DNA of 64,000 bases from Octopus vulgaris (lineage: Eukaryota), in the NCBI GenBank assembly GCA_951406725.2, contig OX597827.1, forward strand, positions 38,750,001-38,814,000. The letters are read 5' to 3'. A model generated the notes under the pieces. The model ran no database searches and was not told the DNA's origin. It saw nothing but the letters and a program-made list of their open reading frames with translations. Shown here one piece after another: positions 16,619-59,724 of the stretch. Position 1 is the first letter of the stretch, and every line of letters starts with the position of its first letter. A program made the translations under genes and the position numbers.

Positions 16619-17457
16619 TATGATGTGCTTGCCCACTTGAGTGATCAATGTACAGGCATGAAATAGTAGGAATATAGCGGTACAAATTATGAATACTCCA
16701 ATGTATGTGGAAAAAGACCTCAGGGGTACACTTTTTTTTCATACTAAATACAAATATAATGAGATGGGAAACTTTGATCAACCAAGGTTATCCAAGCCTT
16801 TAGTAGCCAAAAGATCCTTGGACTGTTTAAAAATCTCAAAATAAGGGCGACAGCTGTAATAAGATCAGTTGATCTAAATTCGCATTGCATATTCTAGTCA
16901 GTTGCCAAACTAAGAGTGATCAATAGATAGAGAAATCCAAAGAATAGCTTTGGCCCAGTGGTAGAATGCCTACAATGCTTATAAGAGATGTGCATTTCAG
17001 TCCCACAAATGACCTTCAACTTTTTCTATGGGTTTCTTCAACCCAGTATATACATCCTATCATTTATATCCTTATCTGCTTCGAGATTCACCATTTCAAC
17101 AAAGAATTATTTCATGCTCTTTCAAAGGATATTTTCCTTTAGCCATATGGCTTGTATACATAATCAGTATCACACATTCTTTCTATTTCTTTGTATTTAT
17201 TGACCACTCTTAATCATGTCAGTGGAGAGGAATATACTTCACTGATGAGGTCTAATTAATATTAAAACAAGCCTGTTGTTTTCACAAGTTAAGTTTTAAA
17301 GACCAATCCTGGTTGTCTTTATTATCCAAAGGTCAACTCATCTCACTGAAGTTTTTTTTTTTAACATACTAAATTACAAATGTGGTAACTTCACCGTTTT
17401 GTATAATAAATACGCTAAACGCTTTCCTTAAATACTTTCTCCTCGTACTATATATAT

Positions 17458-17494
<37 letters not shown>

Positions 17495-18486
17495 AAGGAG
17501 GGGGGATCGAACTCATGTAGATCGGGTTTCGATCCCACAGCGTGACATCTTATGCAAGAATCTTCTCTTATAGCCTCGGGTCCGTTAATACCCCTATTGG
17601 TGAAATTTGGTAGATGAAAACTGTGCAAGTAGCTCGGCGCTATATGCGTGCGGCTGTGTTTACGTTTTCGGACTGGAAACCACTATTGCTTATATCTAAG
17701 TCTCGAAGTACTGGAAGTGTTACATTCCGCCAAACCCTTGAGGGCGGTGCCCCGGCATGAAACCAGTATAAGAATATATACACTACTTATATATCATCAC
17801 CTGATACAAAGTTAAAATTTTAATGTGTATAAACTATATATATATACATATCCTTAATGGAACCGGGAAAACAAAAACTTTTAAAAGCTTATTTTCCAGA
17901 AGGGGTGTGTTACAAGTTCATTCCGTAACCCGTTAAAATACCTCCTCTACAAGCATCAGTTGATTTCATTCATAAACCTGACCTATTGTATGAAATTTTA
18001 GGCATATTTGCGTTGCTAGCTTCTTAGACACCCAGTCCCACGTTATGATAAATAAGTACATAAATACAACCAGTTAGGAGTGTATTTACGAGTGTACGTG
18101 TGTGATATGAAATGTTTCTTCCTTAACAATAGTCATATCCAGGTTTTCTTTTCTCTAAACATCAACACCGATACAAATTTAATAAAAATGATGATGATAA
18201 TAATAATAACAAAATAGTAAACAAACATGGGTTTAACAGACGGCTGCTAACGCTTAATCGTGTAGCAATGTATTTCCTTGATGAGAGGGGAGGATGCGAT
18301 ATAATGAATATTTACAACTTATAAGGAGACCTTATATATACGAAAATAGATTTGTGTGTAAGGTTAAGAATTAACTGGGCAAAGAAGAGAAAATATTAAA
18401 AAAAAAGTATAGATATACGTAGAAAAACAAAGACACCGCCACTCACCAACCAAACCAATGGATAGCAACTGACAAGCACCCGCCAT
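9699..18486 (-). CDS. DENND10: DENN domain-containing protein 10 (FAM45A), complete, 353 aa; complement(join(9699..9872,11091..11185,11501..11568,13920..14063,14506..14617,15223..15451,16084..16283,18447..18486))
   Basis: Eight GT-AG exons with consistent phases sum to 1062 nt. The protein MAGACQLLSIGLVEKDNNADSLFVWSYPS...FQPEQY...KDFDVRQAY...SLPALAWHRQDW...DLYD...MGKLHKDI...ETFLYNLAVCEGLAKY* follows FAM45A motifs end to end. Confidence 0.94.
11091..11185 (-). CDS. DENND10: DENND10 exon 7
   Basis: tcag|AA ... AAG|gtaaga; SLAMGKLHKDIAMFMVKCAED. Confidence 0.92.
11501..11568 (-). CDS. DENND10: DENND10 exon 6
   Basis: atag|A ... G|gtaagt; SDLYDLLVNLQTREISVSPGAK. Confidence 0.92.
11745..11870 (-). 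mobile_element. 5'-truncated SINE with a 14-bp TSD
   Basis: TSD GTATGTTTTAAATG at 11731-11744 and 11871-11884; same tail as the 7266 copy. Confidence 0.85.
12486..12706. mobile_element. piggyBac-like MITE (other copies near 14985-15203, 53163-53375, 63644-63745)
   Basis: Termini TTAACCC(T/A)TTAGCATT ... AATGCTAAAGGGTTAA across copies; shared internal sequence. Confidence 0.6.
13920..14063 (-). CDS. DENND10: DENND10 exon 5
   Basis: acag|G ... AG|gtattg; SLPALAWHRQDW...YIAGFTD. Confidence 0.92.
14150..14366 (+). mobile_element. Mariner-derived MITE
   Basis: TIRs GGGGGTGCTGAAAAGTTCCTGGCTTT / AAAGCCAGGAACTTTTCATCACC; internal NKCVNLRGEYVE* mariner C-terminal motif. Confidence 0.8.
14506..14617 (-). 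CDS. DENND10: DENND10 exon 4
   Basis: ccag|AT ... CG|gtgagt; VIQIFGVETILIYTAQLLKKSIVVYHPKI. Confidence 0.93.
15223..15451 (-). CDS. DENND10: DENND10 exon 3
   Basis: acag|GTG ... A|gtgagt; VTFVSLVLVAKTFQPEQY...AASNLR. Confidence 0.93.
15711..15926 (-). mobile_element. Mariner-derived MITE, inverted copy of 14150-14366
   Basis: TA-flanked; same TIRs; internal sequence is the reverse complement of the 14150 copy. Confidence 0.8.
16084..16283 (-). CDS. DENND10: DENND10 exon 2
   Basis: cgcag|AG ... AAG|gtttgt; EKDNNADSLFVWSYPS...HSLPK. Confidence 0.92.
18447..18486 (-). CDS. DENND10: DENND10 exon 1 (start codon)
   Basis: caagATGGCG context; G|gtgagt donor; MAGACQLLSIGLV. Confidence 0.88.
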
Positions 18487-19659
18487 CTTGCTAGTCTAAC
18501 AATCATTCAGTATAACTCTACATAGAAGAACTCCTGAGAAACTGCACAGACTCAATTCTTTGAAGCAGAAATATCACACATTTAGGCTACAATAATGAAT
18601 ATTATTTTTCTTCTGTTCCACTTCTTTTTTGCTTTACAATAATACAAATGGATATATTTTTCCAGCAATATCCTTTATCACCTTAGATTTCAATAAAAAA
18701 ACCAAAAAAAGAGGACAAAATCCTTTCCCTTTCTTTGAGGAAAAAAGTAAATTAATTTTAAAATGGAAAAGTATGAATGGAAAAATAATGAATTAAAAGC
18801 AACATAATGTTTATTAATCATTGAATGTTTCATGCCTCCTCTCTAAAGAACTTTGAAGAAAAATTTTCTTTATGGACTACCATAGAAATTTTAATGTAGT
18901 TTCATATTTATTTCAATGGTAGCATCTACAGGAATATCATGATCCACCTTTGGGAAGAGGGAATTCTGCCAGAATTCCTAAACAACTAAAATGTCAAGGA
19001 ATAATTTGTGCAATTGCGTTGTGGCTGTTGCACATGATCTGCATACCATCCTACTCAAATAAATTGCGCAGTATAAACATCTCAATATATATATTTATAG
19101 ATATATATATATGTGTGTGTATACCTTATATAGACAGATATTAATACATCAATATAATCATGTAGGTTTTTTTTTTATTACAATCAGCAGAAGTAACAAA
19201 ATGACTAAAAGGTTGTATGGTTACAAAGCCTACTTCCAAACCATATGACTTCAAGTTCAGTCCTGTTATGTAGCACCTTGGGCAAGTGTATTCTACCATT
19301 GCTGCAGGTTAACCAAAGCCATGAGAGTGGATTTGGTAGATGGAAACTGAAAGAAGCCCTTCCTATATGTGTGTGTATATATACTCTGTCTGGATATCAC
19401 ATAATGGTTGTAAATGGTTGACCATCACTGTGATACAAGTTAATTTCCAATGTTTCTGTGCAAAAACATGTCTGGTCATGGGGAAATATTACCTTGCTTA
19501 GAAGCAGGTGAGGGTTGATGACAGGTAGGGCATCTGGCCATACAAAAGATGTTGGTTTCCCAACAACATGGTGTACGTGTCTTCTATTATAGCCCCAGGT
19601 CAATGAAAGTCCTGTGAACTGATTTGGTAGACAGAGTATGAAAGTCATATATATATGTG

Positions 19660-19908
19660 AATGTAATATGTGACAATTATTTGGTAGCCATGATAAAACT
19701 CCGAGTTTCAGATGCCGAGGTGGAAATCCACTCTGCCATCTCTTCAGTTATCCGGCCATCAGAAAAAATGCTATGAAAAAGATGGTCTTTTTCATAGCAT
19801 TTTGTCCGATGGTGAGATAACTGAAGAGATGGTGGCGTGGATTTCCACCTCGGCATCCAAAACTCGGAGTTTTATCATGGCTACCGAATAATTGTCACAT
19901 ATTACATT
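19660..19908. repeat. ~125-bp-arm near-perfect palindrome (3-nt loop) containing hammerhead-like motifs; probable Penelope-like LTR derivative
   Basis: Arms are reverse complements around 19783-19785; CTGAAGA...GAAA core on the minus strand at 19692-19752, mirrored at 19816-19876. Confidence 0.85.
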
Positions 19909-20014
19909 TACAGATAAATTCCTCTATTTACATAATATCGAGGTCTCTTTCATTCTTATGTTGTCTTACCATTTTTATCAATATATATATAGATATAGAT
20001 TATTATTATTGACG

Positions 20015-20840
20015 CTTGCGATGGTATGGTCATGTACTGCAGATGGATGAGGAGAGATGTGTGAAGAAGTGCCACTTCCAAATAGTTGAAGGTATCAGGG
20101 GGAGAGGTAGACCCAGGAAAACATGGGATGAGGTAGTCAAGCATGACCTCAGAGCGTTGGGCCTCACTGAGGCAATGGCAAAGGACCGAGATCTCTGGAG
20201 ATATGCTGTGACTGCAAAGACCCGGGCTGCTTCCTGCATCAGTTCTGCATAGCCCCTGCCCATTCAAAGTACCCTGGATCCCAGAACGTCCCACTGTGCT
20301 TGAGGAGACCTGTTGAGTCAAGTACATGAACATGAACGTCGAAATAAATATCAATGGAAATAGTAGTTGTGATGCCTGTGCCGGTGGCACATAAAAAGCA
20401 CTATCCGAACGTGGCCGATGCCAGCGCCGCCCCGACTGGCTTCTGTGCCGGTGGCACATAAAAAGCACCATCCAAACATGGCTGATGCCAGCGCCGCTCC
20501 GACTGGCTTCTGTGCCGGTGGCACATAAAAATCACCATCCGAACGTTACCAGCGCCGCCGCCTTGGCTGGCTTCCGTGCCGCTGGCACATTAAAAGCTCC
20601 AACCGATCATGGCCGATGCCGGACCCCCCCCCCCCCCCTGGCACCTGTGCAGGTGGCACGTTAAAAGCACCCACTACACTCGCGGAGTGGTTGGCGTTAG
20701 GAAGGGCATCCAGCCGTAGAAACTCTGCCAGATCAGACTGGAACTTGGAGCAGCCCCTGGCTTCCCAGACCCCGGTCGAACCGTCCAATCCGTGCTAGCG
20801 CGGAAAACGGACGTTAAACGATGATGATGATGATGATGAT
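20015..20840 (+). mobile_element. RTE LINE, 5'-truncated: ORF end, 3' UTR with internal ~67-bp tandem repeats and (GAT)n tail
   Basis: RWYGHVLQMDEERCVKKC...GRGRPRKTW...DRDLWR motif, then 3' UTR ending GGACGTTAAACGATGATG. Confidence 0.88.

Positions 20841-43916: not shown

Positions 43917-59724
<15,808 letters not shown>

What the first reader, a model, noticed from the sequence alone, without database searches (positions are those of the whole stretch)
19660..19908. Foldback palindrome built from two mirror-image hammerhead-ribozyme-like motifs
Seen: ~125-bp arms with a 3-nt loop. The minus strand of 19692-19752 reads GATAA-CTGAAGA-GATG(..GTGGATTTCCAC..)CATC-T-GAAA-CTCgGAG-TT-TTATC. That is stem I (GATAA/TTATC), the CUGANGA core, stem II, GAAA, a minimal stem III and a GUU cleavage triplet. 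The mirror copy (19816-19876, +) has CATC-CAAAAC where the other has CATC-TGAAAC, so the two copies show opposite CpG decay of an ancestral CATC-CGAAAC. Known: Penelope-like elements carry minimal type I hammerheads with a short stem III that act as dimers, and often have inverted LTRs. Inference: a PLE- or retrozyme-derived foldback carrying a ribozyme motif on each strand, 1.2 kb upstream of the DENND10 start, and a strong dsRNA/ADAR or cruciform substrate. One extra base precedes GAAA, so activity is uncertain.
Basis: partly seen in the sequence, partly recalled or inferred. Interest (0 to 1): 0.72.

Follow-up and report, generated by a model that had tools for sequence, protein, structure and literature searches.

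The report
Octopus Penelope retrotransposon end, doubled back-to-back
The hairpin is two back-to-back, cut-short tail ends of a common octopus Penelope-type jumping gene, each carrying that family's hammerhead ribozyme motif; at this spot one motif has lost a catalytic base and the other is predicted to be trapped in the hairpin, so it is likely an ordinary insertion scar.

Summary
The palindrome and both hammerhead motifs are real. They are the head-to-head 3' ends (pseudo-LTRs) of a Hydra-clade Penelope-like element (PLE) inserted in (TA)n. Longer copies run into an RT + GIY-YIG ORF with the clade's RWK, DKT and CxCX5C motifs. The genome holds 915 exact core-intact motif matches of this subfamily. 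The family is not the published Hydra-1_Obim. The 'extra base' before GAAA is the canonical C11.1, and the real oddity is a bulged C in stem II. A sister family keeps the fold with different stems. Here the plus copy has G12A, and the minus copy is predicted to be locked in a 134-bp hairpin. Foldback, tail on one end and (TA)n targeting are all published. One detail is worth keeping. In 22 of 22 classifiable foldbacks one arm has the tail and the other lacks it, and either arm can reach further 5'. That favours two separately primed cDNAs over self-priming. Verdict: new member of a known kind, low interest.

The parts
19653..19982 (.). Whole insertion: head-to-head pair of 5'-truncated 3' ends (pLTRs) of a Hydra-clade Penelope-like element, between (TA)n runs
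19653..19782 (-). Left arm: pLTR fragment ending at the family's 'short' end (no tail)
19692..19752 (-). Hammerhead motif, minus copy: stem I 19752-19748 / 19696-19692, core 19747-19741, G10.1 19740 with U11.1 19710 (C-to-T at a CpG), G12 19709, palindromic stem III, predicted cut after U17 at 19697
   Evidence: positions read from the sequence
19783..19785 (.). Junction of the two truncated arms (the 'loop'); belongs to the right arm, which reaches about 3 nt further 5'
19783..19915 (+). Right arm: pLTR fragment up to the 'short' end site
19816..19876 (+). Hammerhead motif, plus copy: core 19821-19827, G10.1 19828, C11.1 19858, G12 changed to A at 19859 (core broken), U17 19871
19916..19982 (+). 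67-nt PLE tail, on this arm only; in full-length tandem copies it runs on into the leader and ORF; holds a small bulged hairpin
19647..19656 (.). (TA)n target, left side (overlaps the arm end by microhomology)
19983..19991 (.). (TA)n target, right side
18447..18825 (-). Neighbour: DENND10 exon 1 (ATG 18486), spliced to exon 2 at 16283-16082; longest 5' contig end seen 18825

Best explanation
This is a 330-bp insertion scar of a Hydra-clade Penelope-like retrotransposon: two 5'-truncated copies of its hammerhead-bearing 3' end joined head-to-head in a (TA)n run, likely made when both nicked target strands primed reverse transcription at two fixed sites of the element's RNA. Shown: family, linked RT + GIY-YIG ORF, two fixed end sites 67 nt apart, one site per arm, (TA)n flanks, short microhomology or filler at junctions. 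Inferred: the endonuclease cuts both strands of (TA)n; one 3' end primes at the long site and the other at the short site; both cDNAs stop early and are joined at their truncated ends. The hammerhead belongs to the parent element and is predicted to work as a dimer through its palindromic stem III, or with the element's protein. At this locus it is likely silent: the plus copy lacks G12 and the minus copy is predicted to be sequestered in the long hairpin.
For: Family: 1973 first-look candidates, 40 scored, best 30 at 93-100% identity including the window itself; 915 exact core-intact matches, 0 for the reversed control. ORF: two of the first 30 loci, once extended, run upstream through about 1 kb of UTR into GIY-YIG and RT. 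Tandem copies show pLTR, tail, leader and an ORF with RWK, DKT, GSYDG/YxDD, CxCX5C, YVG, CxxC, the Hydra diagnostics in PMC8557442 section 11. The best 120 homologues are 41-52% identical and are mostly 600-750 aa; 115 have CxCX5C and 108 have DK[TS]. Hammerhead: the family majority meets the core and core-adjacent pair criteria of PMC3088659. Its stem III (ACTC-G-GAGT) is the same as in Hydra-2_aMil and Penelope-16_HM, and U cleavage sites are common in that table. Sister family C swaps the 2.1/1.1 pair from A-U to G-C, has a different stem II with no bulge, a different centre of the palindrome and a GUA triplet. Architecture: 22 of 22 classifiable outward pairs are long + short; 8 of 8 in the set found with a tail-free query. 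The long arm reaches further 5' in 11, the short arm in 8, 2 are ambiguous and 1 unclassified, of 22 (read by eye). An inverted truncated copy, a tail on one end and (TA)n targets are described in PMC8557442; two RT start sites and two-strand priming in vitro in PMC11167929. Silencing here: about 86 kcal/mol penalty in either read-through RNA.
Against: Rfam finds no hammerhead. Only one core-adjacent pair shows a two-sided change, which is one evolutionary event; 490 of 500 shuffles reach that count, although percent paired (94.1) and the covariation score exceed 500 and 499 of 500 shuffles. As a monomer the hammerhead fold is 4-8 kcal/mol less stable than a competing fold even in intact copies. 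About half the sampled arms carry U4C in the core, so cleavage may matter little. No tree with named PLE references was built. Pfam gives only a weak GIY-YIG hit (E = 0.045) and no RT hit. The estimated full length, about 3.3 kb, is above the 'generally <3 kb' given for Hydra. Junction positions come from BLAST against several references and are approximate. Loci are best hits, not a random sample.
Confidence: 0.9

Rival explanations
1. Same element, but the inverted arm arose by self-priming: one cDNA (or an antisense template) folded back and was copied, as proposed in PMC3846280 for head-to-head Penelope repeats.
For: The two arms of an insertion belong to the same subfamily in 22 of 22 pairs and, in subfamily B, are closer than shuffled partners (2.6 vs 4.6 differences, 0 of 10000 shuffles; not significant in A, p = 0.15). 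Junction microhomologies of 2-7 nt are common. In the window the tailed arm does reach further 5', as foldback predicts.
Against: A foldback copy cannot hold more than its template, so the tailed arm should always reach further 5'; the tail-less arm does in 8 of 22 pairs, five of them by 50 nt or more. Shared subfamily is also expected if both primers use RNA from one source locus.
Confidence: 0.2
2. The foldback was co-opted as a regulatory RNA or DNA structure for DENND10 (dsRNA, editing substrate, cruciform or switchable ribozyme).
For: It lies 0.83-1.17 kb upstream of DENND10 and would form a 134-bp duplex if transcribed.
Against: The arms have each decayed from the subfamily majority (7 and 6 differences, 7 of 13 CpG transitions), about the average for sampled copies (5.7%). 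G12 is lost in one copy. Foldbacks are common in the family (23 pairs in 67 loci), so one near a promoter is expected by chance (inference). DENND10 exon-1 contigs are colinear with the genome and join exon 2 in 4 of 4 runs.
Confidence: 0.04
3. A non-autonomous retrozyme, or a TIR/foldback DNA element (MITE) with a chance hammerhead look-alike.
For: The local copy is short and non-coding, and looks like a hairpin element.
Against: The same sequence is the 3' end of RT + GIY-YIG copies. Most copies have one arm, and 5' ends and arm lengths vary while 3' ends are fixed. The one tandem array inspected is a local duplication that includes host flanks. The motif keeps its fold across families.
Confidence: 0.02

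Closest known systems
Hydra clade of C-terminal EN+ Penelope-like elements (Craig et al. 2021, PMC8557442), including Hydra-1_Obim
   Same: RWK, DKT, CxCX5C linker, C-terminal GIY-YIG with CxxC and CxH; (TA)n targets; type I hammerhead near the 3' end with a 9-nt palindromic stem III; inverted 5'-truncated copy; tail on one end.
   Different: A different family from Hydra-1_Obim: other hammerhead stems; three motif searches find 0 hits in that paper's supplement; Hydra-1-like copies in this genome (104 motif matches) match this ORF at only 29-43% in pieces over 40 aa. Longer stem II with a bulged C next to G10.1-C11.1; 67-nt tail against the usual 30-40; about 1 kb of 3' UTR.
Minimal PLE hammerheads (Cervera and de la Pena 2014, PMC4209133)
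   Same: Type I motif in pLTRs, short stem I, long stem II, G10.1-C11.1, palindromic stem III suited to dimers; dual motifs 100-700 bp apart on opposite strands were already noted there.
   Different: No unpaired base between A9 and G10.1; instead a bulge on the 3' side of stem II. Sister subfamilies carry U4C.
Poseidon element of the green anole, PAc (Frangieh et al. 2024, PMC11167929)
   Same: Two RT start sites bounding the tail; both target strands cut and extended; AT-rich target; hammerhead upstream of the tail.
   Different: Other clade. In PAc the ORF starts inside the hammerhead; here the long ORF's first ATG lies about 105 nt past the tail. In vitro they saw no strand difference in start site; here each foldback uses one site per arm.
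Non-LTR retrozymes (bioRxiv 10.64898/2026.07.22.740005; abstract start and passages seen)
   Same: Hammerhead-bearing, PLE-related, non-coding at this locus.
   Different: Not a tandem non-autonomous unit; a dispersed, truncated end of a coding element.

Membership tests
Penelope-like element | Single ORF with RT and GIY-YIG endonuclease linked to this repeat | tested here: met
   sampled copies are broken by stops or frameshifts; Pfam GIY-YIG only E = 0.045
Penelope-like element | Pseudo-LTR in partial tandem, with optional inverted 5'-truncated copy | tested here: met
   read-through pLTR-to-ORF copies; 23 outward pairs in 67 loci
Penelope-like element | Tail on one end of the insertion | tested here: met
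   67 nt, one arm only in 22 of 22 classifiable pairs
Hydra clade | RWK and DKT motifs N-terminal to the RT | tested here: met
Hydra clade | CxCX5C linker; CxxC and CxH around the conserved E and N of the endonuclease | tested here: met
   CxCX5C and CxxC; the CxH position reads CSY in the copy translated, and the DNA of two other copies encodes CP(H) there (read by eye)
Hydra clade | CCHH motif absent from the endonuclease | not tested
   no reference alignment of CCHH-bearing endonucleases was made
Hydra clade | Insertion into (TA)n | tested here: met
   most arm ends are followed by (TA)n or a derived microsatellite
Hydra clade | Generally under 3 kb | tested here: inconclusive
   about 3.3 kb, summed from overlapping loci; long low-complexity 3' UTR
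Hydra clade | RT groups with Hydra in a phylogeny | not tested
   named reference proteins were not available as usable sequences; homologues are unnamed
Hydra-1_Obim family | Same hammerhead and near-identical ORF | tested here: not met
Type I hammerhead (family majority) | Core C3 U4 G5 A6 N7 G8 A9, G12 A13 A14 A15, U16 H17 | tested here: met
   30 of 93 arms fully intact with U4, 31 more intact but for U4C; 915 exact matches
Type I hammerhead (family majority) | Core-adjacent pairs 1.1-2.1, 10.1-11.1, 15.1-16.1 | tested here: met
   16 of 17, 17 of 17 and 17 of 17 paired
Type I hammerhead (family majority) | Stem covariation | tested here: inconclusive
   one two-sided change plus a re-paired stem II between families A/B and C; few independent events
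Type I hammerhead (family majority) | Self-cleavage | not testable with these tools
   needs in vitro assay; only contigs, no raw reads, were served
Type I hammerhead (window plus copy) | G12 present | tested here: not met
   A at 19859
Type I hammerhead (window minus copy) | Core intact and able to fold | tested here: inconclusive
   core intact with G10.1-U11.1 wobble; predicted penalty 6.6-12.5 kcal/mol alone and about 87 in the foldback RNA
Non-LTR retrozyme | Non-coding tandem unit without its own ORF | tested here: not met
MITE / TIR element | Fixed-length copies with both terminal inverted repeats | tested here: not met
   22 of the first 30 loci have no full second arm; junctions differ between insertions

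The most novel reading that the evidence does not exclude
These foldbacks record the Penelope insertion step itself: a dimeric RT-endonuclease primes both target strands, always one at each of two RNA start sites, and each site is marked by the same short motif just 3' of it (AT then AAATTWCCTC, seen at both the short and the long site in read-through copies). This would explain PLE tails and head-to-head inversions by one obligate two-site priming step rather than by self-priming, and gives thousands of natural junctions to test it on. A side reading: the lineage amplified for long periods with a U4C hammerhead core, so the fold, not fast cleavage, may be what is kept.
Probability: 0.45. Interest if true: 0.5.

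Novelty: new member of a known kind. Interest (0 to 1): 0.22.

Why it matters
The locus itself is ordinary transposon debris. The family is an abundant octopus Hydra-clade PLE that I did not find in the one paper defining the clade; Repbase and Dfam could not be checked. Its value is as a natural data set on a still open question, how PLEs make inverted ends and tails: the strict long + short pairing fits the two start sites found in vitro and is hard to get from simple self-priming. The U4C subfamilies offer a direct test of whether PLE hammerheads need to cleave.

Tried and rejected
Rfam scan: no hammerhead model among 33 matches; the miRNA hits are generic hairpin matches below gathering score, rejected. 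Pfam on the RT and EN pieces: no useful hit. Expression: no RNA holder listed. Contigs from runs guessed to be RNA cover the arm heavily, but as short pieces with differences, that is from other family copies; no locus-specific piece was seen, which is no evidence either way. Editing and cleavage ends could not be read from contigs. Retrozyme-like array: three motifs about 1.38 kb apart on C2 are a local tandem duplication with host flanks, rejected. A reading frame starting at the ATG in stem II, as in PAc, stops after 20 codons (read from the sequence). An intron ending at the TTTACAG short site was considered and not tested. My first tail classifier mislabelled several arms and was replaced by an alignment score with a clear gap (13-23 vs 40-116). 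A full dimer fold was not computed, only the stem III duplex (-7.4 to -9.7 kcal/mol). Lunse et al. 2017 on dimeric PLE hammerheads is not held and is recalled only; one search fetched an unrelated paper. Searches for prior description: hammerhead + Penelope + octopus, Penelope-like + twin priming + inverted + tail, Penelope + pLTR + tail + microhomology + inverted, octopus + Penelope + genome + repeat. None of the listings, or of the passages read, describes this family's hammerhead or strict long/short pairing. PMC13282606 lists 31 Penelope-like families in O. vulgaris with no mention of ribozymes in its main text; its library and supplements were not seen and may hold this family.

Full report
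Observation. The inverted repeat is real: arms 19649-19782 and 19786-19919, 134 nt, 90% complementary, folding at -201.1 kcal/mol with z = -29.5. The plus copy differs at the CpG before GAAA as stated. Rfam finds no hammerhead among 33 matches at E<=10; minimal PLE motifs were found with relaxed descriptors in the papers read, so this is weak evidence against.

Family. The right arm has 1973 first-look candidates in the 2.8-Gb genome; 40 were scored and 30 fetched. An exact core-intact pattern gives 915 matches and its reversed control none. Copies share fixed 3' ends and ragged 5' ends, and nearly all end in (TA)n or a derived microsatellite. From 88 loci (four duplicates left out) I recovered 93 arms covering the motif, in 67 loci; shorter partial arms were not counted. 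They confirm the ancestral CATC-CGAAAC (C in 74, G in 85 of 93). The window's arms differ from the subfamily majority at 7 and 6 places, 7 of the 13 being CpG transitions.

Parent element. Two of the first 30 loci, extended, run upstream through about 1 kb of UTR into a GIY-YIG region and an RT. An RT-based search (1064 candidates, 30 fetched) reached tandem copies in which pLTR, hammerhead and tail continue into a leader and an ORF. The protein has RWK, DKT, a CxCX5C linker, a YVG endonuclease motif and CxxC. PMC8557442 section 11 (read whole) gives these, with (TA)n targeting, as the marks of the Hydra clade. The best 120 of 283 homologues are 41-52% identical, and 115 of the 120 carry CxCX5C. 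No tree was built. The family is not Hydra-1_Obim: its hammerhead differs from the one in supplementary file S2, three motifs find nothing in that supplement, and Hydra-1-like copies here (104 matches) match this ORF at only 29-43% in pieces over 40 aa. 'Octopus' rests.

Hammerhead anatomy. Stem III is a 9-nt palindrome identical to that of Hydra-2_aMil and Penelope-16_HM, and a U at the cleavage site is common in that table. A third, older family C, found by chance and sampled, settles the register. There G10.1 pairs with the C directly before GAAA at the end of an unbroken six-pair stem. The window's family lacks one A on the 5' side and has a bulged C. So the 'extra base' is the canonical C11.1. 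On 17 chosen copies (4 A, 4 B, 7 C, 2 window), 94.1% of cells in the nine core-proximal pairs are paired; the 2.1/1.1 pair switches from A-U to G-C in family C. That is one event: the pair count does not beat shuffles (490 of 500), while percent paired and covariation score do. Family C also has a different palindrome centre and a GUA triplet. By the criteria in PMC3088659 (passages) the subfamily A majority qualifies. As monomers intact copies prefer another fold by 4-8 kcal/mol, while stem III can pair between two molecules at -7 to -10 kcal/mol. This fits the dimer model of PMC4209133 (parts 1-2 of 4 read), which found only low activity, and the protein-assisted, dispensable hammerhead of PMC11167929 (parts 1-2 of 4).

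At this locus. The plus copy has G12A. The minus copy has an intact core with a G-U wobble at 10.1-11.1. Any RNA crossing the foldback holds one sense motif downstream of its own complement; forcing the hammerhead costs 85.5 (plus) or 86.8 (minus) kcal/mol. The two motifs are on opposite strands and cannot dimerise in cis. DENND10 starts at 18486 on the minus strand; exon 1 joins exon 2 in 4 of 4 runs and its contigs are colinear with the genome, the longest reaching 18825. The insertion is thus about 0.83-1.17 kb upstream. Whether it is transcribed or edited is untested.

How the foldback formed. The family has two end sites 67 nt apart; the window's right arm has the tail, the left does not. 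Of 23 outward pairs, 22 could be classed and all are long + short; two loci are near-identical duplicates, so 21 are independent. The second query contained the tail and so favours one long arm, but the first did not, and gave 8 of 8. With 15 of 22 single arms long, independence predicts about 44% mixed pairs, or about 0.001 for 8 of 8 (my arithmetic). The two inverted partners that a regex found among 12 Hydra-1-like loci follow the same rule by eye. At the junction the tailed arm reaches further 5' in 11 pairs and the tail-less arm in 8; 2 are ambiguous and 1 is unclassified. Junctions show short microhomology or filler (positions approximate). A single cDNA folding back cannot give a tail-less arm that is longer at the 5' side, so two primed cDNAs joined at their truncated ends fit better than the self-priming proposed in PMC3846280 (passages). 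Both arms come from the same subfamily in 22 of 22 pairs, which both models allow. In the seven read-through copies, the sequence just 3' of the long site repeats the motif just 3' of the short site (5 of 7 closely). The inverted copy, the one-sided tail and (TA)n bias are published, as are two RT start sites. The strict pairing was not found in the searches named under Tried and rejected.

U4C. 47 of 93 sampled arms (subfamily B, enriched by the second query) and family C read CCGA in the core; 742 exact matches exist genome-wide. The sampled copies that read through into the leader and still hold the motif are of this type. The window's subfamily may have regained U4 through CpG deamination (inference). 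PMC3088659 notes that U4C lowers activity in vitro yet supports viroid infectivity.

Earlier scan notes reach the same class for other octopus foldbacks; they are unreviewed and were read after my own assignment. Look-ups by place and by sequence were empty.

Verdict. Observation confirmed, interpretation partly supported. A new family of a known kind; this copy is likely inert. Interest 0.22; about 0.5 if the obligate two-site priming reading holds.

Noticed in passing
G000 genome-wide; L064-L092, L106-L129: Subfamily B and family C carry U4C in the hammerhead core (742 exact matches); a few listed matches suggest a further subfamily with U4C and the same stem II bulge.
   Followed up: partly
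window 19920-19945; L040, L047, L052, L056, L058, L059, L078: The tail starts with a small bulged hairpin (CCTC...GAGG) kept in families A, B and C, with a varying loop; both end sites are followed by a similar AAATTWCCTC motif.
   Followed up: partly
L131:900-1800, L064, L071, L079: Compound insertions: a further arm faces the foldback tail-to-tail across a (TA)n run; in L131 it shares private changes with its neighbour.
   Followed up: no
L130 (G000:C2:102041830-102046170): Three copies of the motif about 1.38 kb apart are a local tandem duplication including host flanks.
   Followed up: yes
window 17180-17198 (DENND10 intron 1): One low-depth contig (run X1, depth 3.3) shows four clustered T>C changes, that is A>G on the gene's strand; could be A-to-I editing or alleles.
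   Followed up: no
window 20013-20252: Fragment encoding what looks like the C-terminal end of an RTE-type LINE protein (label from recall), directly right of the insertion, followed by 67-bp tandem units at 20376-20671.
   Followed up: no
window 19300-19640: Very abundant short repeat (contig depth up to 10^5 in runs guessed to be RNA) left of the insertion; likely an octopus SINE (recalled, not tested).
   Followed up: no
window 54282-54346: 65-bp, 77% match to the tail region of a Hydra-1-like locus; possibly another PLE end.
   Followed up: no
L010:600-700: A 5'-truncated copy begins right after what looks like an antisense U2 snRNA fragment (recognised from recall), a possible template switch.
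   Followed up: no
L023:198-249, L044:333-384, L012:2745-2809, L054, L062: Other unrelated hammerhead-like motifs turn up in flanks of fetched loci, some with a CCGA core.
   Followed up: no
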